The translations under genes and the position numbers were made by a program. Below, piece by piece: positions 32,201 to 62,734 of a stretch of 64,000 bases of DNA (the stretch's first letter is position 1; each line of letters starts with the position of its first letter). The DNA is from Lytechinus pictus (lineage: Eukaryota). Location of the stretch: positions 14,634,001-14,698,000 of the forward strand of contig NC_087250.1 of NCBI RefSeq assembly GCF_037042905.1, in the 5' to 3' direction. Below the pieces are notes generated by a model, which was given only the letters and a program-made list of their open reading frames with translations, was not told where the DNA came from and did no database searches.

Positions 32201-32862
32201 AAACCCCGATTTTAACTATCGAATTCCGTAGATCTGAATATTGGCATGTTGAGTGTGGGTGAATTAAGTGATGTCACTCTTTGAAATGCTGTTTTAATGA
32301 AAGTTTAATAAAAACTTTGTTTTGTTGGTGCGTGCAGTTTACAGTGGGTAATCAGTAGCTTGCGGTAGCTCTAACCTGTTGTGTGCCTAGCCTGTCGGCG
32401 TGGCGGGGTTGTTGAATGGCCGATGCATGGCAATATCGCTGTCACTGTCAATTTAAACCAATTTACTTGTGTACGCTTGTGCTTTGAGATATGTGTATAA
32501 CGATAAAGCGAAATCTGAACAGAGGTTACATTTGTAGTAGTTTCAGAGTAAATGATAAGGCCACTAACTTTAGATCTCCAGGTCATCACAGACATCTGAG
32601 CTGAGTCTATCTTTTGAAACTAGATCTACGGTATAGACTTGAAAGTGAACTGAATAAAGGATGATTAATGGAATTGGCCTGGATAGGCAATTGAAATTTG
32701 ATTGGGAAGTTTAGATTGGACGGTGTGACTGTGTGATGAATGAATTTGATAAAAGTGAATGAAAGAATTTTGCAACTACCGGTACATGTACTACTATTGT
32801 TGATTTAACATTAAAACTTTCAAGTACATTTGTCAATAAAGTCAGAAACTTGTGTACATGTT

Positions 32863-33068
32863 CAGTGGTGCTCAAAAGTTAGTGAACTTCACCTGAAAAT
32901 AAATATTTAAAGTGTTCAAGTTCTGCCATGTTTTAGATATTTAATCGTGAGGTCAGGTGCGAAAATACATGTAGTGTTGTCTATAAAGACTATACCGGTA
33001 CTTTGGGTTTCACCACTCATCCTACGAATGAGGTTATAATGGGTTTCACTAACTTTTGAGCACACCTG
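32863..33068. mobile_element. Tc1/mariner-like MITE
   Basis: CAGTGGTGCTCAAAAGTTAGTGAA ... TTCACTAACTTTTGAGCACACCTG|TA. Confidence 0.75.
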
Positions 33069-33862
33069 TAGGTCGGCAGAAATAAATACTGGTATCAATG
33101 CATGCTTTTTGTACTGTAATTTGAAAAGTTGAATACTCTTTTTATGCAGTTAAAAAAAATTATCCTTTAAAACATATTTTTGCACCTCCGTTGACTGTAT
33201 AATGCCTCAAACCACAATGTTATTGTATCTTTTTTCTTCCAAAAGCCTTTCTTTGACTAGCTATTCTTCTTGACTTTACTCCTCAACGTCCCGTATCAGG
33301 AACCACCCAATTGATTAATATTGATTTTCTTTTGCAAACAAATCAATTAAATAATTGTTCACAGCTGAGTAGTTGTTGGAATGCTGGCACAAAGGTTAAA
33401 CACATACATCCCATTGACATTAATGTAGGCTACCTTGAGAGCAGGGTTTTAGTTCGTTTTAAGTGCCACTTTTAGGATTGGAAATTCGCATTGCGCCACT
33501 ATCCAATGTTGCGTTACTTGCGTAGTGAGTGAAGGGGGGGGGGGGTGTAGGGGTCTGTTAAGCTTCAGGGGGCATGGTGGGGGTCAAGGGAGTGGAGCCT
33601 GGAGCGCCCACCCCAAGCTCAAATTTATCCTTTGTTCAAAACTGTCATAACAACAATAATACAAATTTAGCACATGTACATGTACAGCATGCATACACTA
33701 TATTTCTCTTAAATTGTAGTCTGGAATTTTAGTCAACTAGCGTGTTTGGATAAACCATGCACAGTCCTGCAAGCCATCACAAACACAGGGCAAAGATATT
33801 CTACCCCTCTTGTATTTTTCTTGCATTGTCTTGAAACTGAATACTCTGTTGTGTATTATTAA

Positions 33863-34477
33863 AATGATGGTCCGGGCTGAAAATATTTATATCTAAATAA
33901 ATAGAGTAAAATTCACAGAGTAAAATGCTGAAAATTTCATCAAAATTGGATAACAAATATTGAAGTTATTGAATTTTAAAGTTTATCAATATTGAGTGAA
34001 AACAGTGATATGCACACCGTCAAGAATATTCATTAGGTGGGCTGATGATGTCACATCCCACTTTCTTTTTTCTTATGTTATTACATGAAATCATACATGT
34101 AAATGTTTCATTTGTTCATACATGTGTAAATGATGTGTCTCCATTATGATCAAATAAGTTGCGGCAGTAAATAACTAATGCACTTACATGTAATCAGTTG
34201 TCAACCCAATTGTTTTAGTTCTTATTAGAAAAATTTGGAATAAACCTAATTTCATGAAATAAAATACAAAAGAACCAGTGGGGATATGACATCATCAGCC
34301 CACCTAATGAATATTCATAAAGACATGCCTAGAACTGTTTCACCGTAATAATGCAAATCTTTAAAATTCAATAACTTTGTTATTTGTTATCCGATTTTGA
34401 TCAAATTTTCAGCATTTTGCTTTGTGAATTTTACTCTATTTATCGAGGTATAAATAGCTACAGCCTGGACCATCCCT
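33863..34477. mobile_element. Kolobok-type MITE
   Basis: TTAA|AATGATGGTCCGGGCTG ... CAGCCTGGACCATCCCT|TTAA, with long inverted arms. Confidence 0.85.
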
Positions 34478-34531
34478 TTAAAACCAAAAGGATCTATTTC
34501 TAGTACTGCATGTTAAATGTTCCATTTTTAA

Positions 34532-35105
34532 AGGTCAAGTCCACCCCAGGATAATGCTGACTTGAATAAATAGATAAAAATCAAACTAGTATAGTGCTGA
34601 AAATTTCATCAAAATCGGATGTAAAATAAGAAAGTTATGACATTTTAAAGTTTCGCTTATTTTCACAAAACAGTGATATGCACAACTAGGTGAGTCAGTC
34701 GATGATGTCCATCACTCACTATTTCTTTGTTTTTTATTGTTTGAATTATACAATATTGCATTTTTTATAGATTTGACAATAGGGACCAACTTGACTGAAC
34801 CATAGAGTATTCAATAATGCTAATTCCATATGTTCAGGGAGGAATTAATTGTTGTATCACTTGACAATGAGGAGAAAATTAGAATATTTCATATTTCATA
34901 TTTATTAAAATACAAAAGAAATAGTGAGTTGATGACGTCATCAGTCTCCTCATTTGCATATAACTGTTTTGTGAAACTAAGTGAAACTTTAAAATTTCAT
35001 AACTTTCTTATTTTACATCCGATTTTAATGAAATTTTCAGTGTTATGCTTGTTGGATTTTTCTCTTTTTATTCAAATCAACTTTTTGTTGGGGTGGACTT
35101 GTCCT
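34532..35105. mobile_element. Kolobok-type MITE
   Basis: TTAA|AGGTCAAGTCCACCCCA ... TGGGGTGGACTTGTCCT|TTAA. Confidence 0.88.
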
Positions 35106-35189
35106 TTAATGTGAATTTCATAGATACCCAAAGAGTTTGCTATTTCAAATATTTTTTTCCATGTACACTTTTTACCATTAACTGCAAAT

Positions 35190-35640
35190 TCCATGGATCC
35201 CTGCCTACAGTGTACATGTATGCTCTGAATGACTTTTGAACCTTTCTGATGAATAGGCAAAATTATATCCCTGGTTCCCTGCCTATGCCTCCATCGCTCT
35301 ATATATCATTTGAATTTTTCTGGTGAATAGTCAATTAGTCAGAATTATCTTCCTGGCTCCCTGCCTACATGTATATGCCTCCATGTATCTGAACTTTTCT
35401 GGTGAATAGTCAATATTATCTCCCCATTTTCCTGCCTACAAATGTACATGTATGACTCCATTATCATTTAATCTTTTCTTGTGAATAGTCAAAATTGTCT
35501 CCCCAGTTCCCTGCCTATGCCTCCATGTATAATTTGAACTTTTCTGGTGAATAGTCAAAATTATCTCCCCAGTTCCCTGCCTATGCCTCCATGTATCATT
35601 TGAACTTTTCTGGTGAATAGTCAATATTATCTCCTCAGTT
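35190..35640. repeat. ~65-75 bp tandem repeat, about 6-7 degenerate units
   Basis: TTCCCTGCCTATGCCTCCATGTAT...GAACTTTTCTGGTGAATAGTCAA. Confidence 0.9.
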
Positions 35641-36491
35641 CATTGTAGAGTAGCAATTGCACAGTGACAGTATGTAATCACAGGTTGATAATACATGCCA
35701 TATTTTGTGCTACTCCTAGCATATGACCCAAACTTTATCTTTGTTTTTATTACACTTTGTAGATTAAAAGGTGACATTTTGGCAGAATGCCTCGGTTGAA
35801 GTCAGTTCCCTATGAGCTTTCAGATTTTACTGGTACTTTTTTGGTTTTGTTTATTAGAGCAGCAGGTCCAAACAGTAGCTCTGTATAACATTCTTTGTGA
35901 ATTATTGAGCGTGACAACAATGCAAATTCTTTGAACTTGCTTGGTGAATAGACAATACTATTTCACGGTCAATGCAATGTAGGTAGTGGTTTATAAAATG
36001 GCAATAAACCTGTAATAATATGGATTTTTTTTTAGTGGGGAGGGGTGGTGACGATTGATTGATTTTGACATATTCTGAATATGTAAACTGCAGTTGGCTA
36101 TGACCTCATTGTTTTTTGTTTACATTTTTCCAAGTCTGTACCTGCAAATGTGGAATGTGTTTGTTATGTTTCATTCTATGCAATATACACTGCACTGTAA
36201 TCATTACATACTTTTTATCCACAGTACTCAAATGTACAGCTTGAGAAATAATCATTAGACGATGACCGTGTGAGAGCTTTTGTACGAAAGTGGTCTTATT
36301 TATCATTTCTGAAACTTGTATACATGTACAGTGTATTTGTAAGTGGGTGTGTACCAGAGGTACAATTTAAAGGGGAAATTCACCCTGATGATAAAAAGTT
36401 GGTTTTGTAAAAAGCTGAAAAAATAGGAAAATGTTGGGGAAGGTTTGATGAAAAACTGTCAAAGAATATAGAAGAATGGGTATCTAACACT

Positions 36492-36778
36492 TAATAATAA
36501 TAATAATAGGCATTTATATAGCGCCATCTATCTAGAAATATTCTATTCCGAGGCGCATTATTATTATTATTATTACCCCGGCTTTAGCTCGAGCTGCCTT
36601 TCAGCGCTCATGCATTCAAGGAATTAATCCTGCTGGGTACCCATTCACCTCACCTGGGTTGAGTGCAGCACAATGTGGATAAATTTCTTGCTGAAGGAAA
36701 TTACGCCATGGCTGGGATTCGAACCCACGACCCTCTGTTTCAAAGTCAGAGGACTAATCCACTAGGCCACAACGCTCC
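36492..36778 (-). mobile_element. tRNA-derived SINE, same family as 15094
   Basis: A/B boxes and (ATT)n tail on the minus strand; colinear with 15094-15379. Confidence 0.9.
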
Positions 36779-37913
36779 ACTTATCAACATGTATAGTAAA
36801 GCAGTGCAGGATGCATTGTTGCCCCCCAAAAACTTTAAAAACAATTGTATTCACTTTTTAAAGATGATCCCTTACTCCAATGAATGGAGAGGGCAGTATA
36901 CTTTCATGGTCATGGCATTTATATTTTTTTCTCCCACTTTGCCCCCCCCCCCCAGAATCTGAACGACCTATGTAGAGTTTATAATGCAGATCTTTCTGGA
37001 GATCAATTCTAATATATTTTTGCAACTGGTGCCAACAGGAGTGAAATGACATTAAAAAACTTTTTTTCTTAAAAAAAAACATAAACACTCTACATGTATC
37101 ACCATCATCTGTGTTAGTACATGTACATGTAGCTCCATGCTTGTAGAGTGCTTTCCAGAATTTAATAGGGTGTATATCACGCTAAACCTTTTTTTACATC
37201 AAATACAAACATGTTTGTCACCTCTTGATAATCTATGGATTACCAGGGATTAAGATAATCTCATCCCATTATCCTTTTATTGTCAGCCATTCAGCCGAAT
37301 ATCCTCAATGACTCAATTTTGTTCTCCTTTTCTTTCTTATTACCCCCTCTTTTGATAATGATGCTTGATAGATACTCTGGAGCCAAGTGTTGTATGAAAA
37401 TTCAAAATAAGAAGTGCTGTTTTGAAAAGTCTCTCTTCAAAATCTGTTTGGAAAGAAAACAAGAGCCCTTTTTGTTAATGCTTTCCCTTAAAAAACTGAG
37501 ATCACAGTTCAGTTTCTGGAAATGTTTGCTAAATTCTGAGTTGTTGTTCGTCCTTGAAGTTAAGACTGAAATATGGATTATTTTTCTCAAAATATATTTC
37601 TTTCTTTCTTGTACTTTGTTTCTTCTTTCTTTAACAAATATAACAAATATTGGCGAAGGTTTGAGAAAAATCAAAGAATAAAGAAGTTATTAGAATTTTA
37701 ATTATTTGATTTGTGACGTCATTTATGTGAGCAGCCTTCCTACATATCATATGGTAAAAAAAATCAATGAAATATCATTTTCTTATAAAATTGAAAATGG
37801 TTTTTATTGTACCTTCAGAATATCAATTCACAAATCACTTCACACCCGTTTCTAAAAAAAAAAAAAAAAAATAAGTCATCATGAATTGAAAACTGAAATT
37901 TATGCATTTTAGT

Positions 37914-38260
37914 GGAAGCGCCGTGGTGTAGCGGTTCTGACTCTCGCCTTGTAATCAGAGGGTCGTGTGTTCGAATCCCACCATGGCCTAGCGTCCTTTG
38001 GCAAGGCGTCAATCTACAATTTGCCACTCTCCACCCAGGTGTTAAATGGGTACCCAGTAGGATGCGGAAGCCTATGTAGTATGCCTAGCAATTGAGTCTT
38101 GGAACTCTTGTTGGAATGCTCCCCAGGGAGTGGAAAAGGTGCATACATTGTATGGGGGCATGCAAGGATCCGATGACCGGGGTAATAATGTATCTGTAAA
38201 GAGAGACGTCGTTCTGATGTGTTAAGAGCTATATAAACGCGGAATATTATTATTATTATT
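37914..38260 (+). mobile_element. tRNA-derived SINE (second family) inserted in a Kolobok MITE; 3' half also at 59305-59460
   Basis: A box TGGTGTAGCGG, B box GTTCGAATCC, CCACCCAGGTGTTAAATGGGTACC and an (ATT)n tail. Confidence 0.88.
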
Positions 38261-40339
38261 TTATATAACATAACATGGGGGCAGCTGCTTGTACATGTAT
38301 ATGACGTCACAATCAACAACTTGAAATTCAAATTACTTTCTTAATCTTTATAAATGGATTTAACATTTTCCTCAAACCTTCACCAATATTTTTAAAAGTA
38401 TTTTCTGCTATTTTTACGACAAAGCCTTTGTCAGGGTGAACTTCCCCTTTAACCTAAATTGTGATTGGTAGCCCAGTTGAGTGTTTATACAGCACAGGGG
38501 CTTGAAATTGACTCCTTTTGTGTCTGGAGTTTAGTCTTCAAAAACAGACCTTTCTTGTAATAAGTGAAAAATTTCAGCTCAATTTATCTTTTCCTGAAGA
38601 AACAAGAATCTTTGAAATACAAAGATCTACATGTACTTGTATGTTCCCAGACTGCCAAAGAAATAAACATACATACATACATATACTTACATGTACTTGT
38701 ACATGAAATGTGTAGGCATCTACATGTACATTTACATACATAGGCTTTAATACATGTTAAAACAAAAATATATAGTTTCAAAATAGTGCACTTCATGGGG
38801 TTCTTTGAAGAAAAAAAACCTTTTATACAATATCAAACTTCTCTAAAGCTTCAATAGGTAAATACCTGAAATATATGTTTACAGTACTACTTGTGAATAT
38901 GAATATAGGAGTATTAGATTGAGGACTGAATCCAAGACTATACGTCATCTCACAATCCTCTTTTTGACACTCTTGTGTCAGCTTCCCCCAGACAGAAGAG
39001 CTCCTCCCATTATGCATCAACACTTGATGTCCCCGCATAATGCATGCCTCATTAAACTCAGCTCATCACATTGCCAGCCGCAATAGCTGTGACCAGCCCC
39101 AAGAGGTTATACAGGTTTAGGGGCCCAAGCTTTTCAATCCCTATGAATATTCGAATCGGGATCCATTTCTTGGCAGCAATGGGCTTTTGCACAAAGGGGG
39201 TCACTATAAAAGGCTTTGTCTTTTGATAGAGTCTAGTCCTTGTCATTTGTGGCTCTCTTTAATTATCTACATCAGGGAATAATTTTCCTGGTATCACATC
39301 GCAATTTGCTCCACATTTTTGAAAGACTGCTAGATGCATAAAGTCTTTTGTATAGCATATTTTTACATTGGACTGTACATTACTTAGTTGAGGGCTTTTC
39401 TCTTATGACCAAAAATGCTATTCAAATTTGTAAAGCAAAATTATTCCCTGTACATGTACAGGTAGATGTATGGACATGTATGCCCTCCTGCTTTTCTTGC
39501 AATGTTTAATTAAATTTTGAGATAAGAAAGGTCATGGGTACTCCACTCATGCTTTTTTTAAAAGTATTGACTAATTGATTTATTGACTTTCCTACGTGTG
39601 AAGTACATGTCTTAATGTCTAATGAATGGTGTAATACGATTTCCCAATAAATTGTATTTTTTTGTTGCTACATGTAGTTAGGATGGCATGAATTTGAATA
39701 AAAATCATATTTTAAAAACTTGTTTTATAAACCTTTGTTTGAATTTTGAGAGTATTGAATTTGAATTTATTAACAAACTTCATTCATATGGCATGAATAT
39801 TTTGTTTTAACATATATACAATGATAACATGAACAAAAACATTCATAACTGTACATGTATGTCGTATAAATCAGTAATACATCAATACATAGATTTCCAA
39901 TTATTATAAAGATATACATCTATATATACAAAGAGAAATGACGAATTGAAATTTAACATAAAGAAGGTGTAGCATAATGCAATATATACATAAGTTATCT
40001 AATTATCGAATACAAATCAGGAAGTAAATAAATGTATAACGTTAGAGATATATCTTTGGTAATGGTGGCTTTGGTGGCTTTGAGATATTTTGAATGAAAT
40101 TTACAAAGAAAAAATGTACTAGATGTTTGACAAAAACTTTCATAAATGTAGGTCTGTGATTATTTGCTATATTTTGAATTAAAGGGAATGGATGAAATAT
40201 GTCCTCATAGACATGTACATGTATGCAGTTTCTTGTACAATCATGGACCATCATCACACAAAATATACATGTATGTGCAAAATGTCAAATACTTACAATT
40301 TATAAAATGTTGATGAAGTAAGCCTTGTATGATGGCATA

Positions 40340-40374
<35 letters not shown>

Positions 40375-42134
40375 GGGGGGGGGGTTAGGGGTCAGGTCAT
40401 TGACATATTTCTTCTCTTTTCATGAGTAAAAAGGAAATTGCCAAGGTATAGATGGTGTAAATAGGAAAAAAACACACATATACATGTACATCTACAATAC
40501 TGTAAAATAAGCCATGAGATATAAAAGAGAAGACAAAAAAAACCCAAAACAAAACCCAAAACTATATTAAAAGCATTATATAAACAATTAAATAAAGCCA
40601 AACATATTTATTAGCTCTAACAGAGAAGTACTGACACAGAAGTCCTGGATATTCCTGAGTTTTGAACTGGAGGTGAGAACCCTTATAAAACAAGCTTAAT
40701 TAAATATAAAGAGAAATATATATGCATGAGTTTTTCTTTTAAAACTGTACAAACTCAAGAAAACAATGTTCAATAATTATCAATAATGGAAACACTATCT
40801 CCTCTGCAAGTGGTCCCAAAATATTTTTCATTTAACTGGGAGGGGGGATTTAAAATTTTTGTTGTTGATATATTATAGGTCCACTGGTCAAGATATTTTT
40901 TAATGGAAATTACCAATCAAAAGAAATACCCACATTGTTTGGTCTTGGGCCTAGACTAGGGGGTGAAGTGGAGAGCATGAAAGATGCCATCATCTATGCA
41001 AATGAGCTCATGCATTATGCATGAGTGACTCACTGGGTCATCATGCTTGGCCTGCCAGTCGATCCACTCAGAGGAGAGACAAAAATTAGACAGAAATAAA
41101 GAGATAGGGGGAAGGGTGGAAGGGGGGGGGGGCTTGAATGAGGGACTTCTTTGTCTAATATCGGACAGTAAGCTGAGATGGACCTTTAGTTTGGCGGCAC
41201 ATTAGTTTTATGTATCAGAAGTGTCGATGCATTCATAATATGCATTTATATTGAGTGTTAGTGTGAGTTGGCTTGAAATTGACTGATTTTTATGATTATG
41301 AAAATGCTTCCCCCTCTCTCTCTCATTACTCTGATAATCATGCATGGAATTAGTATTTAAAAACAAAGACAAATATTGAATTGAATTGTATTTTTTTTAT
41401 CCACATTGCAGATGACGTCAGTTGAGAATATATATTCTATTCTTTTGAAATCTTTGAAATCATGATATGATTTTGAGTTACTTGGGATGACTTTCAGTAA
41501 TAGAACGATGGTCAGAAACCTCAATATTAAAGATAAGGGATTAATTGATTTACTCATGTAGTGGGAGAGTAATAAAGAAAAAGGAGTAATTTGGAGATAT
41601 AGGATTTACATTATGGACACGGAGAGAGAAAGAAAACAAGATAGATAGAGCGGAAAGAGGAGAGAGAGAGTGGGGGAGGGGGGGAGGATGACAGAGTGAA
41701 TGAGAGAGATAGATAATGTGAGGGAGAGGGAGAGACAAATAGAAAGATTAATAAGATCGGGGGGGGGGGGATGAGGGTGACATAGATGGAGAGAAAGATG
41801 GGGGTGGGGGTAGACAAAACAAAATTAAATACAAAATGTACAAGCATAATGAGAGAGAGTTTTTTTGAGAGCATTTGTGAATTATGACTCTGGAAACCGG
41901 GCATCTACAGTAATCACATGCATAAAATCCTATGTACTTGTTCATTATTAACTAGGTAATAATCCAATTACAGACAGTCCTTTGTCCCTGATATTGGAGT
42001 TTAGGAGGGTATTAGGGTTGTTCATTATGTGGTCTACAAATTATTAGCTAGAAGGTTATGAAGCAAGTTCTGTAGAGTGTGTTTCCAGGCTACAGTGTAT
42101 TTTGTTGTAATGTATCTGTCATACATTATGTGTA

Positions 42135-42365
42135 TTCATCATTATTATCATCATCATCATTCATCTCATCATCATCATCATCATTGTCACCATCATGGTC
42201 ATCATCATCATGATCATCATCATCATTATCATCATCATCATCATCATTCATCTCATTATTATCATCATCATCATCGTCGTCATCATCATCAACATCATCA
42301 TTGTCATAGTCCTCATCACCATCATCAAATACCGTCATCATTATCATCGATCATCACCATAGATC

Positions 42366-42448
<83 letters not shown>

Positions 42449-42482
42449 CATCACCATCATCATCATCAATCATCATCATCAT
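42135..42482. repeat. (CAT)n microsatellite
   Basis: Directly visible. Confidence 0.95.
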
Positions 42483-45262
42483 TCCTAGTGAATTCACGGT
42501 GTGTCACTAGCTAATGGAATTGTCGAAACAAATTTAAAGGGTCTGAATTATCAAGTGAGTCAAGACTATTACTTCCCTCTCGAAATACAATATGACACAG
42601 AGTTTGTAATCTGATTTTATGCATCAAGACCGATGAATTCATAAATTGGTAGAAATGCTGCATAATTGTCCTACATGTACATGATCACTGGAAGGTGCAT
42701 TTTTCTGCTCAAAAGTAAAAGGACCTTTTATTCACCATCACATGTTCACAATTGGAAAGACATATTTTAGGGCGGACAAAAATGATTTAGCACAATAATG
42801 AGTAGAACTATGCCCTTTGAAAACCTGTGTTTCCAGGTTGAAAAAAAAATGTTGATGCAGCCTAAATATAACCCATGACTCAGAGTACTCAACATACCCG
42901 TTTTAATAAATTATTACTTGGAGAAAAGCAAACATACATTGTATGTACAGTAAATCTGTGAACATTAATGTAAATTAATGTAAGGTACATACATGTATGT
43001 AAAAAGCCTTCAACAACTGAATATTGTAAATTATAGGGGGGCGGGTTAGGTAGCAGCTTCTAAATTTTGCCCAATGCACAGTGAATCTGACAATTTCATT
43101 GCATTCAGAGGTTAGTGATGGTTTTCCACTAAAACCAGTATAGGAAATACATGTATATTATGTACAAGAGATTTTGCCCTCATGGCAGTCCCAAATCGCC
43201 CCTAAAATCCACCAAATTGGATGCTTTGGGGCAAATATCTTTTTTTAAGAGTTGCCCCACGATCTACCACCACAATGTTCTTGAATAATTATTTTAGAAG
43301 ATCAATGTTTTACATACTGCAGATTGATGATATATGTTATTGTATGAAAAATTAGCCCTTAAATTGAAAGAAATAGCCCCCCCCCCAGAATTCAGCAATT
43401 GCCCTTTAATATGAAGAAAGAAATAGCCCCTTAACAACAAATAATTCCTACCCAGTACTAAACATTTCTCTAAACCATAGACAAAAGAGGTAATGAAGTA
43501 TAAGTAAGGACCGGTATACATGAGGGCGACGGGCGATGTTGCCCTCATGACAGCCCAAATAGCCCTTTAAATTCCCCCAAAATGCATGCTTTGGGGGCAA
43601 CCGGTCTTTCTAACTTCGCCTCAAGATCTGTTAGAAAAAATATTCAAGATTATTAAACATCAATATTCTGAATGATGGTATTTGCTTTTACTGCATAATT
43701 GCTTGTTACCCCGAAAATGTAGCCCAGGTAATGAAAGAAATAGCCCCCCAAATTTGGCAATTGCCCCAATGTGGAAAAAAGGTAGACCCTAAAAATAAAA
43801 ATGAATTCCTACCTTGGTATGGACTGCGTACTAGCATCTAAGATTTTCAGGGCTTTATACATTTTGGGGGTCACTTTTTCCTTTCCAATTTAACATTCTG
43901 GAATAAAAACTTAAAAATAATTTTATGGTAGGATAAAAATTCATTGTCTTGAACATGAATTATGAATGTTTGACTTGGGTGAAGGTCTTTCTGAGTTCAG
44001 TACCCCGAGGTTTTAACTTGATGACAAAAACATCAGTCATCAAATTTATTTATGAATAATTCATTTGCGAGAGTTCGTTGGTGAAGGCTTACATTTTGTG
44101 AGTTCTAGTCTTGCATTCAGGAATTATACAGTAAGTTTAGTATTTTATCTCTGATATACTTTGAAAATTGTCTACTGGTATTAAAGTACGTTGTAAATGT
44201 TGGCACAGATAGTGTATCTTTTTCTCTTTCCGTCTTTCTCTTTGTTTAGAAAGTCAAAAGCAGAATCTTCGTCGGAGGCAAAATGACCTTTCTCTTTGTC
44301 TCTCTATGCTCTCTTTATCTCACTCTCCATCTATATCTTCCTCTTTCATTTTCTTTCTCCCTCTCTTCCTTTCTCTTCCCCTCTCTCTTTCTCTTCCCCT
44401 CTCTCTTCCCCCTCTCTCCTCCTTCATGCATTTTCTTCCAGAGCTATTTGACACATTTATACATGTACAACATATAAACACTTTGGTGGTAATTTCAATG
44501 GAATCTGTTTTTAAAAAACTCATTTTGAGATTGTTACCACAACTGGTATTTACCTTTATGCTTCATCATTATATTATCTGTCCCTCATTCTTTTTCTGTC
44601 CCTCTTTCTTAATATCTGTCTCTCTATTTCTCTGACCCTTTCTCTCATTCTTAATATCCTTTATCCATTCTGTCAATGCAAACTTCACATTCACATACAT
44701 CTATATAATGATATAAACTGGATATTTGATTTTTTGTTCCTGAAATTCAGACTAATTTCTGAGGATGGATATCGTGTGATGAAAGTAGGCTGTATATTGA
44801 AAGGTCAATTCAAGAGTGATTGTGGTCGAGAGGGGGCGGGATGATGATGATACATGTAGTTCTCTTGTCAATCTATTTCGCAGATTACATATATTTTAAT
44901 CAAATAGTTTTGTAGTAGATACGTGTATATACAGTACACTGTGTCTGCTGCATTTGTGTAGATCCCCTTTTCTCAGTACTGTTCGATAATGATGGGTATT
45001 TTGACTATACTGTGATTTTTTTACAAAAATTAGATTCAGTGAAATTTTTTTATTGTGAGCAGTGCCTCCATTAAAGAAATCTTTTCAGTCGTTCGTTCGT
45101 TCTTTCTTTCTTTCTTTCGGTAACTTGGGGCAGCATCGGTAAAATGAAGAAAATATCCAGAAATTAGCAATTTCGAGAGGAACAAGCCGCTTTCTATCAA
45201 CTCAGCTGAAATAGTTTGGCACTTATGCTCTACGATAATACTGTTTCAGCTCTAAATAAGGA

Positions 45263-47892: not shown

Positions 47893-47954
47893 TTAAATTC
47901 TTCCATTTGTATGTACTGTTGCTCTAAACACACCTGGGTCGTAAGTGTAGATTA

Positions 47955-48593: not shown

Positions 48594-48724
48594 TAATTGA
48601 AATGCTTTGGTCAAAAGACAATGTTCATGTGACAGAAATCAAAACCATTCATAGTTTACAGTTCATTTGTACAAAATCAATATGATGATCGTTGCAGTGA
48701 TGATAAATTTTAGGATTTATAAAA

Positions 48725-49750
48725 GATGATGTTGATGGTGGTGGTGGTGGTAATGATGATGGTGGTGGTGATGATGGTGATGATGATGCTGCTGATGATG
48801 ATGATAGTGATATTGATGGTGGTGGTAGTGATAATGATGGTGATAGCGATGATGATGATTATGGTGATGATGATTATGATGATGGTGATGATGATGGTGG
48901 TGGTGATGATGATGATGATGGTGATGATGATGGTGGTGGTGATGATGGTGGTGGTAATGATGTTGGTGGTGGTGGTGATGATGGTGGTGATGGTGATGAT
49001 GGTGGTGGTGATGATGATGGTGATGATGATGATGATGGTGGTGGTGGTGATGATAGCGGTGGTGATAGTGGTGATGGTGGTGGTGATGGTGGTTGTGAGG
49101 ATGGTGGTGATGATGATGGTGGTGGTGGTGATGATGGTGATGGTGATGATGGTGGTGGTGATGAAACTGATGATGGTGGTGTTGGTGGTGGTGATGGTGA
49201 TGGTGATGATGATCATCATGATGGTGATGATGGTGGTGATGATGATGGTGATGATGATGGTGGTGGTGATGATGGTGATCATGATGGTGATCATGATGGT
49301 GATCATGATGATGATGGTGTTGGTGATGGTGGTGGTGGTGATGATGGTGGTGGTGATGATGGTGGTAGTGATGACGATGATGATGTTGGTGGTGGTGATG
49401 GTTTTGATGATGGTGATGGTGGTAGTGATAATGGTTGTGGTGGTGATGATGATGATAGTGGTGGTGGTGGTTAAGATGATGATGGTGATGATGGTAGTGG
49501 GGTAATGATGATGGTGGTGATGGTGGTGGTGGTGGTGATGATGATGATGGTCATGGTGGTGGTGATGGTGGTGATGATGATGATGGTGGTGGTGATGATG
49601 GTGGTGATGATGATGATGATGATGATGATGATAATGATGATGGTGGTGATGATGATGGTGGTGATGATGATGGTGATGGTGTTGGTGGTGATGATGATGA
49701 TGATGGTTGTGATGATGATGATGGATGATGATGATATGATGATGGTGGTG
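48725..49750. repeat. (GAT)n/(GGT)n compound microsatellite
   Basis: Directly visible. Confidence 0.95.
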
Positions 49751-52700
49751 ACTGGAGAGAAAGGAAAAGAGAGGAGAGAAATACAGTACCACAGCCAAAA
49801 CAGTAAGGAGATGAGAATTATAAAGTTATTAGCAAGGGACCTCAATAAAAAGAGAAGGGAGAAATAATGAATCACATCAAAAAGATACTATGTATTTTTG
49901 TTTCCATCAAGTCTGTGCAGTCCTACATCCTAAAAACCCAATTAAACCACCCTCCCACCAGGGGGAGAGAGAAGATGATAAACACCATCCTATCATCCTG
50001 GAATAGGCCCTCACACCTTAAAGGGGGTTGACTCGCACTATGGGATGATTTGGATGGATGCATTCTTGTCGGCATAAATTACCACTAGGTGCTTTATACC
50101 TTCGTGGCACTATTTAATCAAGAAATTATTCCGTGGTCACAAATTACAGAAATTATGTGCAATTATTAAGTTCTCAATTATGGATTTTTCCAACTAAAGG
50201 AGGAGGAGATATTAGTTTCATTATCATTACCAGCAACTTCATCATCTTCATCACCAATAACATAATCATCAACATCTTCCTTATTCAGGGAATAATTTTC
50301 CTGGTATCACATCGCAATTGCTCCATATTTTTCAGACTATATATATATACTACACAAAACATCTTTTAGTGTACACCCCTGTAGCAGATATTTACATAGG
50401 ACTGAATAGAAAGTAATTGAGAGCATTTCTCTTACATCCAAATTTTGTATTTAAGCAATATTATTCCCTCTCACTATCAATTTATCCTCATCAACAACAA
50501 CATCATCATCACCAATCGTCATCGTCATCATCATCATCAATCATTATGATATTTTATCATCATCATCATCAATTATCATCATTATTGTCACCATCATCAC
50601 TGTCATTGCTACCGTCATCATCAGCACCATCTTTGGCGTCGTCAATATTATCATCATTATCACCAACATCATCATCATCATAATTTTCTTCAATGATATT
50701 GAAGTGAAGTAATCTGGTGGTTCTGACAGACTGACACTAGACTTCATGTTGAGGGTTCAATTCTAAACTTCATATTTTTATACAGTCATCCCTCTAATAT
50801 GCACTTCTGGAGAAATTTCTCTCAAAACGTCTTTCTAATCGTGATACTTAGTAAAGAATGGCAACCGAACGTCACTCTAGGAGTAAACTAAATTTACAGG
50901 CATGCCTCTATACAAATTAATGCACAATCTCTCTCTCAATCCAATACTGTATGAGAGGATTTTCAGATCGGTTCTTAAAATAGAACACAGGTGCCTGGCA
51001 GTGGTTCGTGATTTCATCAATAGAAACTGTTCTTATAGACGCGAGAAGGGGCCCCCATATCATTTTCATAAGGCTTTTTTTTAAGATTGAAATGGAATTA
51101 TGGGAATGTCATTTATTTGCCTGCCAATGGCTCAGGATTTCATCAGTAGCAAATGTTCTTTATCAAAATGAACCGATATCATTTTCATCAGGCAGGCTTT
51201 TGAAATTGAGATGGGATTATGTCATTTATCATAAATATTTACCCAATATTAGCATTTAGTGCTGAACTGCAGTGTGAATACAATAACTTGCCAATTAGTA
51301 TGTTGAGATGTTTTTCAAAACCTATCTTTTGTTTTGGTATAATCCCCCCAAAAGTGCATATGTCACTATTCCAACTCATTACTAGATTTTAATACTTGTG
51401 CCCCAATATGGTTATAATGGTGTGAAGCATTTGTGTTTTATTGGATAAATTTAATGATCATACAAAAAAATAATAATTTGATTTGGTGCTACATAAAAAT
51501 GAAATATCTGCAAATTTCTGTGTATTTTTGTCTTTTGTATATAGTCCTTCTCAATCATGGATTGGGCTGAAAATTTTAGGATATCTTTGTCAGTAGCTTC
51601 TAGTATCTAAGATGAGTGCTTAAACAGCTAATGGACATAAAAATAGAAACATTACAGAGAGAGAAAAATAGAATCATTACCGAGAGAGGATGCTAGATTT
51701 ACATTTAAATCCAAACAGCTGGAAAAATGCTGTATTTGAATTCTAACCCATTGGTAAACTATGCTTTTGTATTATATATTGTAATGTTCAGTGATACTGT
51801 ATAATTCACATTACTGGTCCTTTAACAATAATATAGACAGGCTTTAATATTTTATGTTTAACTGAATATGTGGAAAGATTTTTGGATTTGAAGAGATATT
51901 TTAATTAGCTCTATTTATTTAATTCTACTTAATGGATAGATGAAAGAGAGAGAGAGGGGAGAAAGAGATATAACAGAGAGAGAGTGGAGGGGGGGGGGAT
52001 GTGGGATAGGACTGACGGGGGGGGGGGAACATGTAGGACTGATGGGGGGGGGGGGGTGATACATGTAGAACAAAGGCGGGGGGGGGGATAGTGTGAAGTA
52101 CATAGGGAATCTCAGACTATTTTGAATTTCATCTGTTGAGTGGCAAGTTTATGAAATTTGTATGGGTTTTGAAATGACATTGCACTGCATTGAAAATTTA
52201 CAAAGTGGTTTGGAGAAATCAATTTCCATATAACAAAGGAAGGCAAAATTAAATCCTGAGGATATCAGTTTAAAGTACACCAAAAATCAACCTTTGAATA
52301 GCTGAGAATGTATGAAGGATGACAGGGAATTTTGAATACAAAAAGGACATGCTCCTGGCTACATGCTATTACATTTCTGCCTGTTTAATGTGAATTGTTT
52401 CATTTATTTGCCTTTTTGAAAAAAAATTGCTTGGCTGGTACATGTATCTTGTAAGTCCAAATATCATTTGGTGATTCTTTAGATTTTGAAAATAATCTTT
52501 TAGGATTCAAATTAAATTGAAAATTCAATTGCTCTCAATTAAAACCCCTGAAGTCAGGTTTAATAGACCATGGTCAAACTCTGTGCTAAAATTATGGGAA
52601 GCTTGCAATTAAAATATTTTGTTTATATTGTATATTTCTTATGTTTACTATTTTGTTGTTTCCTTTTGCTTTCATAATAAGGAAAAATACTTCAGTATCA

Positions 52701-53335: not shown

Positions 53336-53893
53336 ACACCATTACTTTAACACTGAAAAAGCTTGATGTGTTTTTCTTTGAACATTGGTGGAAAGTGTTT
53401 GTAGTTTGAACACTTTTATGTTATTGCAGTGTTGCTTTTATCTCAAGTTTCTTTGCTTTCAACACATTCTATGAGGTGTTTTAACACTATTTAATAATTT
53501 ACTATTTAATGTTATTTCAATCTCTGTGGTGTTTAACAGCTGAGGATGTGTTCATCTCTGGTGTTAATGGTAATGTTAATTAAATGCGATATCAGTTGAA
53601 GAATACATAATATATAGACCTACACCATTAATAACACTGAAAAGCTTGATGTGTTTTCTTTGAGCATTGTGGAAAGTATTTGTAGTTTGAACACTTATGT
53701 TATCACAGTGTTGTTGCTTTTATCTCAATTCTTTTTTGCTTTCAACACGTTCTATCAGGTGTTTTAACACTATTTAGTGTTATTTCAATCTCAGTGGTGT
53801 TTACTGTTTAATAGCTGAGGATGTATTCATCTCTGGTGTTTAAATGTTAATGTTAATTACAGTACATGCAATATCAGTTGAATAATACATAAT
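53336..53893. repeat. Tandem duplication of a ~285-bp unit
   Basis: ACACCATTA...AACACTGAAAAGCTTGATGTG...AATACATAAT at about 53336 and 53622. Confidence 0.9.
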
Positions 53894-56009: not shown

Positions 56010-56154
56010 CCTAGTCTAAAATGAGACTACTAATGATTACTTCACACTATCTCGATGGTGCTATTAGAAAGTCTGCAGTGAGAGACTAGCAATCACTTAG
56101 CACCATCTTTACAGTGGGTACGGTGAAAGATGGGTGATACTTTTGTGTTCTCCA

Positions 56155-56295
56155 GGGCCCCTGTAACATAAAACCTAGCGATTGATCGCAGGGCTGACTT
56201 TAGCGATCGATCATACACAATAATCCATGCAATTATTCGTAGAAATAATCCCTGCGATCGATCTCTATTAAGCTTTATGCTACATGTATGGGCCT
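56155..56295. mobile_element. Palindromic MITE with CAG flanks
   Basis: CAG|GGCCCCTGTAACATAAAAC...GCTTTATGCTA(CATGTA)TGGGCCT|CAG. Confidence 0.7.
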
Positions 56296-58984: not shown

Positions 58985-59275
58985 TCAGATGAGAGGCCAT
59001 CTTAAATTAACATATCCAACAAAAAGAAAACAGACCGGAGATAGAACATTCACCGTTGCATCCTCAATGGAATGGAACAAACTCCCTCTCACAATAAGAC
59101 AATCGGATCCCCAACAATTGAGTCCTTCAAGAAGTCCCTTAAAACCCTTTTGTTCTAGGCAACTGCCTTCATTTAATATGTCATTCTGATTTTTTGTTTG
59201 TATAAATAAGTTAACTGAAATTGTGAGCGCTTTGGGCCATGTGGGAAAAGCGCGTTATAAATGTTGAGTATTATT
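58985..59275 (+). mobile_element. 3' fragment of an L2-clade LINE
   Basis: Reads GDRTFTVASSMEWNKLPLTIRQ and, after a frameshift, SFKKSLKTLLF; tail GCGCTTTG...GCGCGTTATAAAT...TATTATT. Confidence 0.75.
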
Positions 59276-60932
59276 TCATTTCTCCGAAAATACTGTGAAG
59301 TGTATCTGACTGGAATACTCCCCAGGGAGTGGAGGATGTGCACACATTGTGCGCGGGAATGACTGATTGAATCCGATTACCGGGGTAATAATATATCTGT
59401 AAAGTGCTTAGGCACGTCGTCCCAATGAATTAAGCGCTATATAAAAGCGGATTATTATTTTTAGTGAATTTCCTGGAAACATTGTTTTGTTCCCCCTCAT
59501 TTTTGTATTCAAAATGCACATTAGAATGATTTCTCTTCATGATAATTAGATAATGCGATGCTTTGTTTGATTGATTAATTATCTTTGATTTGAAATTATC
59601 TTTAATTTAATAGAAAAATCAATTGCTTTTTACTATAAAAATATGAATAAATATAAAAAGTGTATATACAAAACTAGGCTTTAGACAGTGTAGTATGGAC
59701 AGTAATAGGGAATCTGGCAATCTGCATGATAAATTTATGGTCAGTTTGCATCCATTTATACAATGAGCAGGGGGAGCTTTTTCATGAAACAAATACCAAC
59801 TGATATTCACTGACTATTGTTATAAGCTACTGAAATGCATGCATCTGATTGGCTCAGAGCATGATAGTCGGTGAAATATCACTGATTATATAGTTTCATG
59901 AAACGCTCCCCAGTGCAAGGTCAAGATTGATAGAGACCTCGCTTTCACTACCCAGCTGAGCCGTTTGCCGAATACCTTTGATTGCAAACGTCGAAATATT
60001 TGTAATTAATTTTTCCTCCGAAGAGAACTCGCACGACAGATGGACAGTTATATTGCACAATTAATTAAGTCTGTCCTTGTACACTGTAATAAAACTTATA
60101 GTGTTAAGTGACACTTGCAGTGTTGACAAAGGACTGTAAAGCACTTTATTCCAGCGTTAGAATTCATGGTGTTTAATAGTTCAAAGCCCATCGATGTTAA
60201 TATCATTTTTTAAGCTCGAGATACAGATTACATGTAAATCAGGGTTTTTTTTTAATTTAAATAAGTTGCGCGCAATATAAAACGCATGACCGCATCATGA
60301 CGCGCACTATTACGTATTGATCAATAAGATTGCACGTTGCATATCGTCTGTATTTTAGTGCGACTCTAAGTCATACTTAACTCTTCGTGAAACATCTCCT
60401 GGTCTTGTATGCCACTCCACACCACAACCAATGTATTCATACACCAGTATGAAATTCATGGTGTTAGATTAACGCCGATATGTGTTATCAAGGAGTTACC
60501 AACACACTCCTTGGTGTTATAATACATTTTGTCCCTTATTTAAAAAGTATTTGGTGTTGTGTTCAAACTCAACACCAAATATTTTCAACACTTGAGGGAG
60601 TGGTCATCACAGGACACCGACGGGTGTTTTCTTCAAATAACACCTTAGTCTTACAGTGTAGTGCTTTCCTCATAGATTAGAGAGCTCTTGGGACAGATGG
60701 ACTGTTCTTGCACAATAAACTTTGTCCTTGTAGCTACAGCAATAAAATGTTCTGCTGTGTTTCTTATGAAAAAAAATTGACAGGTTGAGAAATATTTCTC
60801 AATTCATTCAGGATTTACAGTGTATACCATACTGCCTGAATAAATACAAATGATCAATACATGTATCTGCTTGCTAAAATTGTCTTGTTGTTTGGATAGA
60901 GTTCGCCTTTAAAATATGAATTCCTTTCCTTG

Positions 60933-61142
60933 GGGGTGTTTCACAAAGATTTAAGTATGACTTAGAGTCGCACTTAAATGTCTATTTGCATGGGGTATAA
61001 AAGGCATGACCGCATTGGTCAGATCATGCGAAGAGGATGTGCACTACTGCGTATCGATCAATAAGATTGCGCGTTGCATATCATGTATGCGTCGGCATTT
61101 AAGTGCGACTTAAGTCATACTTAGATCTTTGTGAAACTCCCC
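60933..61142. mobile_element. MITE; an inverted copy lies at 62735-62952 and a degenerate copy at 60240-60400
   Basis: GGGGTGTTTCACAAAGATTTAAGTATGACTTAGAGTCGCAC ... GTGCGACTTAAGTCATACTTAGATCTTTGTGAAAC. Confidence 0.88.
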
Positions 61143-62734
61143 CCTGATCTTGTATTTGTCGTTTCCATCCTCTCCAAATGCCATAGAAATTTCCAATTTT
61201 AAATATCACAGAAATATAAATGTGCCCCAAGCAATTTCCCTGAAACCTCTTCCTCTCAGCGAGGTTTATTGATATTTGATGTAAAGAAGTCTGATAGAAC
61301 CCCTTGTTGCCATGGAAACAAGAACATATGACTCAAGGCAAATTTATTAGAAAAAGTGTAGATTGATTGATTTTGATGTACTGTATGGGGCTATTAAAAT
61401 GTTGACTTTATTTCATGCTGCGCTATTGTAATGCGCACCTGCTCATTAGAGATGCTTTTATATTCATATTAGATTTTAATATTTCTAACTTTGAAATGTG
61501 CACCACAGTTTTAGTTGAATTACAGGAACTTTTTTGTCAACTTTGAGACGGTGATCTTAATTGAAGTAAAGAATACAAAAAATGAAAGAAATTGCCATCC
61601 TCCCTAATAAACAAACAAAAGTTAGAATAGGTGTTGAAGTGACATCTATTGGTCAACACCAATGATTAATTTACGCCTTCTTGGTACATGTATGGCATAT
61701 TTTGACACCTGAGTTTTTGCAGTGTTGATTACTGATTTACTATAAATAAAGCTATCAAATAATTTATCTGATCTAACCCTGTGGTGTTTAATACCTTGAT
61801 GTAAATGAGTTCACAATTTTCCAGTGTCAAGTAGAAAAAAAATCTGTGTTTCTAATTCAAGTACTAAACCAACAAAATAAAATAAATAAAAACCCCAAAA
61901 AGAGAGAAAAATTAACAATTATAAAAGTCACTCATAAAGGTGTTGGCATCACACCAAGGATGAATTTAAGCCATCTACGTGTTTCATCATATTTAACACC
62001 CAACTTTAAAGTGTTGATTGCTTGACTGCCGCTTTACCAACTAAGCTAGCATGCAACCTCTCCAATCTAGTGAAGACGAGTTAACGCCCTCAAGAATTCA
62101 AACATTGAAACTGAGAACGGTTATTCCAAAAATCAGAACTCCCGAACTCATCCGCTGCCCAGTATAAATTGTGTCCTTCCGATTCGAGTACACTTGACAC
62201 CGTCTAATTCATAGAACCATCTGATGTGTGGAACAGTATACACCTGAGGAATGAGAAGCATTAAATGTGTGCATACGACTAATCCGAAATGATGCAATCC
62301 ATGGGGTACATGATGGGGTTACCATGACGATACCTCATCAGAGACGGAGGGATGAAGGGGGCACTTTGGGATAATTTTGGAGGCAGTCGTCAGGTGGGGA
62401 TGACGATGAGTCGCCGTGAGTCATTGTGTCATCTTCGCTTGAAAACCGGTGATGTGTTCAAGCGAGTCAAGAGCATGCTAGCCTGTGTCAAAGGCTGAAC
62501 CATGTTTTGGTGATGCATGAGTCAGGTTTAGACTCTGTTCAAGTGACGAGTCTTCATATATAAAGTCAGCCTTTTTATTGTCTAGATAAAGAAGTAGTGT
62601 ATTGAAAAGTGCCTCCATATGTTATAAGGATTACAATTTTGATTTTATATCATGTCATGTCTGGGAAATTAGACCAAACTAAAATGTCATCAGAAGTCAG
62701 AATATTGGTACTGCTCTCAGTCAGTCAGTAATCT

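What the first reader, a model, noticed from the sequence alone, without database searches (positions are those of the whole stretch)
32780..61700. Pervasive TA-to-TACATGTA (and TACAGTA) micro-insertions concentrated in one domain: possible mass transposon-excision footprints
Seen: a by-eye tally gives about 40 TACATGTA in 32.7-62 kb but only about 2 in 16.5-32.6 kb; roughly 1 per 30 kb is expected by chance at this AT content. Internal controls show several are insertions at a TA. (a) In the 35.2-35.6 kb tandem repeat, intact units read CCTGCC-TA-TGCC, while three units carry different expansions at that TA (35206-35220 TACAGTGTACATGTA, 35366-35373, 35437-35452). (b) The right TIR of the 56155 MITE has CATGTA (56281-56288) that the left TIR lacks. 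(c) The Kolobok copy at 33863 has it at 34094 and 34185 where the 23738 relative does not. (d) 38292 differs from its paralogue near 14935 in the same way. (e) The 53.3-kb duplication has TACAGTA (53858-53864) in only one unit. Established: Tc1/mariner elements duplicate TA, and excision leaves TA-CA/TG-TA (Tc1) or TA-CAG/CTG-TA (Sleeping Beauty type) footprints. Inference: a CA...TG-ended element has repeatedly inserted and excised, preferentially in CpG-poor (probably methylated, transcribed) DNA, or an unknown templated-insertion process is acting. A CAG...CTG MITE at 32863 is a candidate donor type.
Basis: partly seen in the sequence, partly recalled or inferred. Interest (0 to 1): 0.8.

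Follow-up and report, generated by a model that had tools for sequence, protein, structure and literature searches.

The report
Transposon excision scars peppering urchin DNA
Hundreds of thousands of TA sites in this sea urchin genome have been lengthened to TACATGTA, most likely six-base scars left when cut-and-paste transposons jumped out, so the genome may hold a readable record of past jumps and their repair.

Summary
TACATGTA occurs 45 times in the window against 1.6 expected: 40 in 32.7-62 kb and 2 in 16.5-32.6 kb. The genome holds 224,046 copies.

The motif arises by a +6 insertion at a TA. All 39 paralogues of a 550-bp repeat read TA where the window copy reads TACATGTA, at both sites. 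Of 33 sites with a paralogue in 264 kb, 10 show a clean 6-base gap leaving TA and 2 arose by substitution.

Among the 16 words TA-XY-Y'X'-TA, CA, GG and CC are enriched 7-29-fold; TATATATA, a simple repeat, is enriched 5.7-fold.

Best reading (0.75): these are Tc1/mariner excision scars that keep both two-base transposon ends. Donors exist: a Tc1 family with many intact genes and TA|CAC...GTG|TA ends, and a CAG-ended MITE in the window. No site was caught holding an element in one copy and a scar in another.

The scar is +6, unlike the published +4 (worm Tc1) and +5 (Sleeping Beauty).

The link to CpG-poor DNA is weak.

The mechanism is known; the scale and scar form turned up in none of my searches. 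The scan earlier noted a similar pattern in a fungus.

The parts
32783..61692 (.). Domain with 40 TACATGTA sites (1.37 per kb; genome average 0.276 per kb)
33859..34420 (+). Copy of a ~550-bp TTAA-flanked MITE-like repeat (more than 3,000 first-look candidates in the genome). It serves as an internal control for the ancestral state.
34094..34101 (.). TACATGTA, a private +6 insertion at a TA. 39 of 39 paralogues read ATCA-TA-AATG.
34185..34192 (.). TACATGTA, a private +6 insertion at a TA. 39 of 39 paralogues lack it.
35201..35645 (+). Six tandem units of 66-82 bp. Three units carry different insertions at the same TA (35206-35220, 35366-35375, 35437-35452).
38292..38299 (.). TACATGTA, +6 relative to two paralogues (one 72% identical, outside the window)
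14707..14714 (.). TACATGTA in the paralogue of the 38.3-kb repeat, at a different TA. An independent event.
37118..37131 (.). Double scar TACATGTACATGTA. 12 such doubles occur among 180 sites in 264 kb.
32777..32790 (.). Compound scar TA-CCGG-TA-CATG-TA: two different palindromic insertions sharing one TA
32863..33068 (+). 206-bp Tc1-type MITE with 24-nt terminal inverted repeats (CAGTGGTGCTC.../...CACCTG), 92% complementary. It sits directly after a TGTACATGT word. It holds one TACATGTA (32966) and one TACCGGTA (32993) inside.
53858..53864 (.). TACAGTA, a +5 insertion at a TA in one of two duplicated units (Sleeping Beauty-type scar)
56281..56288 (.). TACATGTA beside the right arm of a small inverted repeat. 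The +6 reading is plausible but the alignment is noisy.
18000..22402 (+). Young repeat (copies 94-100% identical elsewhere) inside the motif-poor half. It holds one of the two sites there (19070).
26460..28205 (+). Young 1.75-kb repeat (at least 35 copies, 95-97% identical), no TACATGTA

Best explanation
TACATGTA sites are scars of Tc1/mariner-type cut-and-paste transposition.

Proposed steps (inferred except where noted):
1. An element with 5'-CA...TG-3' ends inserts at a TA and duplicates it.
2. At excision the transposase cuts the non-transferred strand a few bases inside the element. This is stated in PMC6943129; that the stagger here is two bases is my inference.
3. Each flank therefore keeps TA plus a two-base 3' overhang.
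4. The germline's end-joining keeps both overhangs in full and joins them: TA-CA + TG-TA = TACATGTA, a net +6.
5. Elements with GG...CC and CC...GG ends leave TAGGCCTA and TACCGGTA in the same way.
6. A minority of events keep or add one more base (TACA-N-TGTA) or use a three-base stagger (TACAGTA).

Scars accumulate because the element moves on while the scar stays. Each scar supplies two new TAs in a near-preferred context, which gives double scars, (TACATG)n runs and local clusters.

Shown: insertion at TA; specificity of the inner bases; existence of matching and apparently active donors.
Inferred: the excision itself, the two-base stagger, and the repair route.
For: 1. Insertion at TA.
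- 39 of 39 paralogues read TA at both window sites (20 of 20).
- Of 33 sites of 180 with a paralogous alignment in 264 kb: 10 show a clean 6-base gap leaving TA; 2 a 6-base gap without TA; 9 are identical in 93-97% identical segmental duplicates; 2 arose by substitution; 3 have other gap lengths; 7 have only poor alignments.
- Other copies of the same repeat carry their own private events: L042 +6; L044 +6 by eye; L028 TAcacttgTA.
- 7 of 35 six-base gaps in the self-comparison are of the ACATGT class.

2. Specific inner bases. Of the 16 words TA-XY-Y'X'-TA in 264 kb, three stand out: CA (180 against 6.3 expected), GG (14 against 1.9) and CC (9 against 1.1). The only other word above 2.3-fold is TATATATA (50 against 8.8), a TA simple repeat. 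Genome-wide: TACATGTA 224,046, TAGGCCTA 66,473, TACCGGTA 20,388.

3. Graded spectrum. TACA-N0-TGTA 180 against 10.2 expected; N1 35 against 8.5; N2 16 against 8.9.

4. Donors.
- A Tc1 transposase (HTH_Tnp_Tc3_2 + DDE_3, 364 aa) gave 150 scored hits of 729 candidates, most with an open frame.
- Its ends read TA|CACTACTC...GAGTAGTG|TA, with 452 end matches genome-wide.
- The MITE at 32863-33068 has CAG...CTG ends; its TA-prefixed terminal repeat has 1,143 hits.
- Other TA|CA...TG|TA MITEs lie in the 264 kb.

5. Scar flanks are biased in the direction of the Tc1 target consensus CAYATATRTG (PMC9635669, passage). Position -1 is T in 0.12 against 0.31 of all TA sites; -2 is a pyrimidine in 0.63 against 0.50; -3 is A in 0.47 against 0.32. 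This is after dropping half-sites that abut another scar.

6. Contigs of a separate run hold the sites at 35213, 35366 and 37091-37124 with 0-2 gap letters (table 8, records 9 and 12).
Against: - No filled-versus-scarred pair at one site was found. None of the gaps of 12 bases or more between duplicates in 264 kb is a TA-flanked CA...TG element.
- The +6 form is not the main product reported for worm Tc1 (+4) or Sleeping Beauty (+5). Here TACATA and TATGTA are not enriched (126 against 130 expected; 130 against 140), and TACAGTA and TACTGTA only 1.6-fold.
- Credible resident CA-ended TA-flanked elements in the 264 kb number about 6 by my reading, against 180 scars. A crude count of such elements by terminal dinucleotide did not track scar abundance.
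- The active Tc1 family has a much sharper target preference than the scars. Position -1 is A in 91 of 100 listed flanks (tallied by eye), against 0.41 for scars. That family alone cannot be the main source.
- For TAGGCCTA and TACCGGTA only 4 sites had paralogues. One looks like +6, one is +9, one is a substitution and one is unclear.
Confidence: 0.75

Rival explanations
1. A TA-targeted insertion process that is not transposon excision puts CATGTA, GGCCTA or CCGGTA into TA sites. Candidates are a domesticated transposase or nuclease cutting at TA, with a fixed short filler added in repair.
For: No filled/scarred pair was seen. The product is far more uniform than published Tc1/mariner scars: +6 dominates and +4 is absent. 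Scars outnumber resident CA-ended elements about 30 to 1 in the 264 kb.
Against: The inner bases are exactly the terminal dinucleotides of resident TA-targeting elements. Three different inner pairs would need three fillers. Cut-and-paste elements are expected to leave more scars than copies.
Confidence: 0.1
2. Replication slippage or expansion of (TACATG)n and (ACAT)n microsatellites creates most sites.
For: 12 of 180 sites are tandem doubles. The 20-mer (TACATG)3TA occurs 449 times genome-wide. At some +6 sites the neighbouring six bases differ from the insert by one base (38292, -2697, -89593).
Against: At most polarised sites the flanks have no CATG to copy (34094, 34185, 98540, 101534). 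Slippage copies local sequence, so it should give many different 6-mers rather than one. It does not explain the strict TA target, nor TAGGCCTA and TACCGGTA.
Confidence: 0.05
3. The motif arises by substitution, for example CpG decay of TACGCGTA or TACACGTA.
For: 2 of 33 covered sites, both in one satellite array, arose from TACATGTG by substitution.
Against: 12 of the 17 covered sites whose paralogue differs and aligns well show a 6-base gap. 39 of 39 paralogues show gaps at both window sites. TACGCGTA occurs once in 264 kb.
Confidence: 0.02
4. TACATGTA is a selected protein- or RNA-binding motif, or an assembly or polishing artefact.
For: It is a perfect palindrome and strongly over-represented.
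Against: Sites are private insertions scattered through decaying repeat copies, with no conserved position. Contigs of a separate sequencing run hold several of the sites (table 8). I know of no sequencing error mode that inserts six fixed bases only at TA (my own knowledge).
Confidence: 0.03

Closest known systems
Tc1 excision footprints in Caenorhabditis elegans
   Same: TA target, duplicated TA retained, inner bases taken from the CA...TG element ends. The symmetric target consensus CAYATATRTG (PMC9635669, passage) runs in the same direction as the flank bias found here.
   Different: The reported main somatic product is +4 (TATGTA or TACATA; 78% for endogenous Tc1 and 8 of 11 reporter events; PMC12632400, passages). 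Here +4 shows no excess and +6 dominates. I did not see a report of genome-wide accumulation there.
Sleeping Beauty canonical footprints (TACAGTA / TACTGTA)
   Same: TA + terminal bases + TA, arising from 3' overhangs left by cleavage inside the element and joined by NHEJ (PMC6943129, passages). One clean example lies in the window at 53858.
   Different: That scar is three bases from one end, +5. Here these words are only 1.6-fold enriched, and 5 of the 6 sites with paralogues arose by substitution.
Minos 6-bp footprint in Drosophila (recalled, not checked in any call)
   Same: A six-base scar: TA plus four terminal transposon bases.
   Different: As I recall it, the four bases come from one end through a mismatched four-base overlap. 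Here they are two bases from each end, because donor ends seen here (CAGT, CACT, CAAA) are not CATG.
Genome-wide excision footprints found by comparing two rice genomes (PMC4423477)
   Same: DNA-transposon excisions inferred genome-wide from sequence comparison (passages).
   Different: That study found 94 putative excisions, only 8 of them 'perfect' and most with deletions or filler. Here one uniform scar is so common that it distorts the genome's 8-mer spectrum.
Earlier scan note e1-7727027 (fungal chromosome, 7-bp palindromic XY-TNA-Y'X' repeats)
   Same: A target-site duplication with two mirror-image bases, read as repeated transposon scars.
   Different: Different genome, different target (TNA) and different length. 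I did not examine it.

Membership tests
Tc1/mariner excision footprint | The extra bases sit at a TA and are flanked by TA on both sides (retained target duplication) | tested here: met
   39 of 39 paralogues read TA at both window sites. 10 of 33 covered sites show a clean 6-base gap leaving TA. See also the tandem units.
Tc1/mariner excision footprint | The inner bases equal the terminal bases of TA-targeting elements resident in the same genome | tested here: met
   TA|CAGTGG...CACCTG|TA MITE in the window, with 1,143 TA-prefixed terminal repeats. Tc1 family with TA|CACTACTC...GAGTAGTG|TA ends. Candidates with GG...CC and CC...GG ends.
Tc1/mariner excision footprint | A transposase of the superfamily is present and plausibly active | tested here: met
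   PF13358 gave 150 scored hits of 729 candidates, most with open frames of about 364 aa. The frame carries HTH_Tnp_Tc3_2 and DDE_3. Activity itself was not tested.
Tc1/mariner excision footprint | The same site is seen empty, filled with an element, and scarred (direct evidence of excision) | tested here: inconclusive
   No such pair appeared among gaps of 12 bases or more between duplicates in 264 kb. Laid contigs were swamped by repeat copies. The haplotig attempt hit a satellite.
Tc1/mariner excision footprint | The flanks of scars match the transposase's target preference | tested here: inconclusive
   The bias runs the same way as the Tc1 consensus: -1 not T, -2 pyrimidine, -3 A. It is much weaker than for the active family, where -1 is A in 91 of 100 flanks (tallied by eye).
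Tc1/mariner excision footprint | Scar length as described for studied members (+4 for worm Tc1, +5 for Sleeping Beauty) | tested here: not met
   +6 dominates (180 against 10.2 expected). TACATA and TATGTA are not enriched. TACAGTA and TACTGTA are 1.6-fold enriched.
Microsatellite slippage product | The inserted bases are a tandem copy of adjacent sequence | tested here: not met
   Flanks at 34094, 34185, 98540 and 101534 hold no CATGTA to copy. This is met only for the doubles (12 of 180).
CpG-decay product | Paralogues show substitutions at the motif rather than gaps | tested here: not met
   2 of 33 covered sites arose by substitution, against 12 with six-base gaps.

The most novel reading that the evidence does not exclude
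The scars are a genome-wide, datable ledger of germline transposition and of how this animal's germline repairs breaks.

- About 0.3 million TA sites carry one of three palindromic +6 scars.
- New scars arise at roughly one per 200-300 substitutions.
- Their uniform full-retention form would report an end-joining route that joins non-complementary 3' overhangs without trimming.
- Because each scar makes two new near-consensus TA targets, and elements hop locally, scars would breed scars. That would lay 'trails' such as the 32.7-47 kb cluster and seed (TACATG)n microsatellites.

Transposon excision would then be a major, sequence-specific source of small insertions in sea urchins.
Probability: 0.3. 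Interest if true: 0.75.

Novelty: new variant of a known kind. Interest (0 to 1): 0.6.

Why it matters
If the reading holds, a single 8-letter word marks about 224,000 past excision events in one animal genome, and two related words mark tens of thousands more.

That would allow several things from sequence alone:
- estimate how often cut-and-paste elements jump relative to point mutation;
- date bursts, by the age of the repeats that carry scars;
- map where elements land in the germline;
- read the preferred repair outcome of a defined double-strand break in a non-model deuterostome.

It also warns that k-mer or motif-enrichment screens in such genomes will pick up transposon scars as apparent palindromic 'binding sites'.

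Tried and rejected
- Laying public contigs on 32,701-52,700. About 150,000-214,000 pieces per DNA run, mostly other copies of the repeats, swamped the tables. Only 12 of 178 indel rows were shown, none at a motif site. This says nothing about polymorphism. Its only use: records 9 and 12 of run X13 span sites with 0-2 gap letters.
- Looking for allelic contigs among small contigs. The piece of C123 I took is a 586-bp satellite, 100% identical to C45.
- Counting TA-flanked inverted-repeat elements by terminal dinucleotide in 264 kb. TTAA-flanked families and nested palindromes confound the count. Uninformative.
- Pfam on ten long open frames of the window. No hits, so I did not establish the gene context of the domain.
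All genome-wide figures are therefore pattern counts, and all spectra come from the 264 kb around the window plus fetched copies.
- Literature. Searches for TACATGTA; for it together with Tc1 and 'excision footprint'; for sea urchin + footprints + Tc1 + excision + genome-wide; for excision footprints + TA dinucleotide + indels + mariner; and for the three octamers together listed no paper, by title and abstract start, on such an accumulation. Plasterk 1991 (PMC452867) is not held.
- Rejected readings: P-nucleotide or hairpin-type scars (hAT, Transib, RAG), because the inner bases are not mirror copies of the flanks; and PIF/Harbinger for TAGGCCTA, because a TTA or TAA duplication would not put TA directly on both sides (my inference; flanks).

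Full report
WHAT IS THERE

The window is part of contig C6 of an 812-Mb, 368-contig genome. An earlier scan note calls it a sea urchin.

TACATGTA occurs 45 times in the 64 kb. 100 dinucleotide-preserving shuffles gave a mean of 1.61 and a largest value of 5.

In the rich half, 40 of 55 ACATGT are flanked T..A. CATG is by far the commonest four-base filler between two TAs: 40 of 230, with the next at 17.

The word is not local to this window. The genome holds 224,046 copies, or 0.276 per kb, against 85,448 for the same letters read backwards. From base composition alone I would expect about 28,000 (my arithmetic, not a tool result).

In the 264 kb made of the window plus 100 kb on each side there are 180 sites against 6.3 expected from a first-order Markov model.

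IT IS AN INSERTION AT TA

The cleanest control is a ~550-bp TTAA-flanked repeat with more than 3,000 first-look candidates in the genome. I fetched 39 of the 40 best-scoring copies.
- All 39 read ATCA-TA-AATG and GCACT-TA-ATC where the window copy reads TACATGTA at 34094 and 34185 (20 of 20).
- Other copies carry their own private events at other TAs: L042 (+6), L044 (+6 with a neighbouring deletion, seen by eye) and L028 (TAcacttgTA).
- In the 40-copy alignment there are 13 insertions of three or more bases, of which 3 are TACATG at a TA. There are 882 substitutions from consensus in 21,138 compared bases. That is roughly one scar per 200-300 substitutions.

A self-comparison of the 264 kb gave a paralogous alignment for 33 of the 180 sites:
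- 10 show a clean six-base gap leaving TA.
- 2 show a six-base gap without TA in the paralogue.
- 9 are identical in 93-97% identical segmental duplicates, so they were inherited.
- 2 arose by substitution, both in one satellite.
- 3 have other gap lengths (the tandem units among them).
- 7 have only poor alignments.

One private event lies in a 95.9% identical duplicate (-24889), so the process has continued after recent duplications. Of 35 distinct six-base gaps, 7 are of the ACATGT class.

In the 35.2-35.64 kb tandem array, three of six units carry three different insertions at the very same TA. Case (b) is plausible but noisy.

THE GRAMMAR

Among the 16 palindromic words TA-XY-Y'X'-TA in the 264 kb, three non-repeat words stand out:
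- CA: 180 against 6.3 expected.
- GG: 14 against 1.9.
- CC: 9 against 1.1.

TATATATA (50 against 8.8) is also raised, but it is a TA simple repeat. The other twelve lie between 0 and 2.3-fold.

TAGGCCTA and TACCGGTA sites sit in unrelated contexts, and some abut TACATGTA: TACCGGTACATGTA at 32777 and TACATG-TAGGCCTA-CATG at +95.9 kb. Genome-wide they number 66,473 and 20,388.

The spectrum around the main form is graded: TACA-TGTA 180 against 10.2 expected; one extra base, any of the four, 35 against 8.5; two extra bases 16 against 8.9. The +4 words TACATA and TATGTA show no excess (126 against 130; 130 against 140). TACAGTA and TACTGTA are 1.6-fold up.

For the minor words the paralogue evidence is thin.

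WHAT IT MOST LIKELY IS

A strict TA target, a retained TA on both sides, and a fixed pair of inner bases that differs between classes are what excision of TA-targeting (Tc1/mariner) elements should leave. The passages I read in PMC6943129 say three things. The non-transferred strand is cut a few bases inside the element. This leaves 3' overhangs. [quoted passage not shown]

Matching donors exist.
- A Tc1 transposase frame of 364 aa with HTH_Tnp_Tc3_2 and DDE_3 domains gave 150 scored hits of 729 candidates, most uninterrupted.
- Its ends read TA|CACTACTC...GAGTAGTG|TA, with 452 end matches genome-wide.
- The window's own 206-bp MITE (32863-33068) has CAGTGG...CACCTG ends. Its TA-prefixed terminal repeat occurs 1,143 times at up to 2 mismatches.
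- That MITE sits directly after a TGTACATGT word, as if it had landed in the TA of an older scar.
- Other TA|CA...TG|TA MITEs, and candidates with GG...CC and CC...GG ends, lie in the 264 kb.

The donor ends seen start CAGT, CACT or CAAA, not CATG. So the four inner bases are best read as two from each end, with both two-base overhangs kept in full. This step is inferred.

Scar flanks are biased in the direction of the published Tc1 target consensus CAYATATRTG (PMC9635669, passage). Position -1 is rarely T (0.12 against 0.31 of all TA sites), -2 is a pyrimidine (0.63 against 0.50) and -3 is A (0.47 against 0.32). This is after removing half-sites that abut another scar.

WHAT SPEAKS AGAINST IT, AND WHAT IS MISSING

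- I found no site that is filled in one copy and scarred in another. The public contigs did not help, nor did my search for allelic contigs.
- The +6 form is not the main product described for worm Tc1: +4, at 78% for endogenous Tc1 and in 8 of 11 reporter events (PMC12632400, passages). Nor is it the main product for Sleeping Beauty, which is +5.
- A six-base Minos footprint is something I recall but did not check.
- The active family's target preference is far sharper than that of the scars: -1 is A in 91 of 100 listed flanks (tallied by eye). It cannot be the main source, so many families over a long time are implied.
- Resident CA-ended elements are few beside the scars: about 6 against 180 in 264 kb, by my reading. 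That is expected for cut-and-paste elements but is not proof.

THE DOMAIN QUESTION

Site counts are over-dispersed, with a variance-to-mean ratio of 2.0 to 3.8 for 2-8 kb bins. 31 gaps are under 100 bases against 12 expected, and 12 gaps are exactly 6 bases, the doubles.

The window's rich half (1.37 per kb; 1.96 per kb in 32.7-47 kb) is five times the genome mean. Comparable clusters lie at -84 kb and +96 kb. The poor half (0.12-0.18 per kb) is somewhat below the genome mean of 0.276 per kb.

Part of the poor half is young DNA: 18,000-22,402 has copies 94-100% identical elsewhere, and 26,460-28,205 has at least 35 copies at 95-97%. Long CAT/GAT-type arrays fill other parts.

The link with CpG depletion is weak: rho -0.21 at 2 kb, not significant at 4 and 8 kb. 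The CpG-poor first 16.5 kb has few sites.

I think residence time, local hopping and re-use of scars as targets explain the clustering. None of these was tested.

RIVALS

- Substitution or CpG decay is refuted as the main source.
- Slippage explains doubles and (TACATG)n runs (449 of the 20-mer). It does not explain first insertions into flanks without CATG, nor the TA rule.
- A selected motif or an artefact does not fit private insertions in decaying repeats. Contigs of a separate run hold the sites at 35213, 35366 and 37091-37124 (records 9 and 12). That run may or may not be the assembled animal.
- A TA-targeted insertion process unrelated to excision is not excluded. I give it 0.1.

NOVELTY

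The mechanism is textbook. I did not find in print a single uniform +6 scar so abundant that it reshapes a genome's 8-mer spectrum, with two sister words obeying the same rule. The searches were made, read as listings, plus passages of five papers.

The nearest work is the rice comparison with 94 mostly messy excisions (PMC4423477, passages).

The scan itself noted a similar palindromic-scar grammar in a fungus (e1-7727027). I did not examine that note.

I file the finding as a new variant of a known kind, interest 0.6.

Noticed in passing
L045 (G000:C6:20051860-20055291) and L046; hit list: A Tc1 family has many intact 364-aa transposase frames. Its copies often lie in head-to-head pairs 1.3-1.7 kb apart. 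In L045 one copy runs straight into an inverted partial copy.
   Followed up: partly
Window 34.5-35.1 kb repeat and its copies at about -35.4 kb, +101.2 kb, +106.1 kb and +141.0 kb (window-relative): Copies of a second MITE-like family each carry a different 17-24-base insertion at the same spot beside a TGCA word. Examples: CATCGTGGTCGGTATGCA, TGCATACCAGCCAGGATG, TGCATGCTGACTAAGATG. This could be a variable cassette or another kind of scar.
   Followed up: no
Window 18000-22402: A 4.4-kb element has a 100% identical copy on C11. That copy is split in two pieces about 875 bp apart, with a 6-base overlap of the query (2313-2318). This is a very recent insertion or deletion in one of the two.
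   Followed up: no
G000:C123:20001-30000 (L067) and C45: Small contigs C123 and C45 share 100% identical stretches made of a 586-bp satellite. A 97% identical three-unit block lies on C17.
   Followed up: partly
264 kb around the window: The palindrome TGACGTCA occurs 23 times against 2.2 expected. At least some copies sit in a repeat family that holds TATGACGTCA (38.3 kb and 14.7 kb).
   Followed up: no
Window 2-7.2 kb, 42.1-42.5 kb, 48.7-49.75 kb: Long imperfect CAT/GAT/GGT triplet arrays. CATCATCA occurs 437 times in the window. These open long frames on both strands, with no Pfam hit on the frames tried.
   Followed up: no
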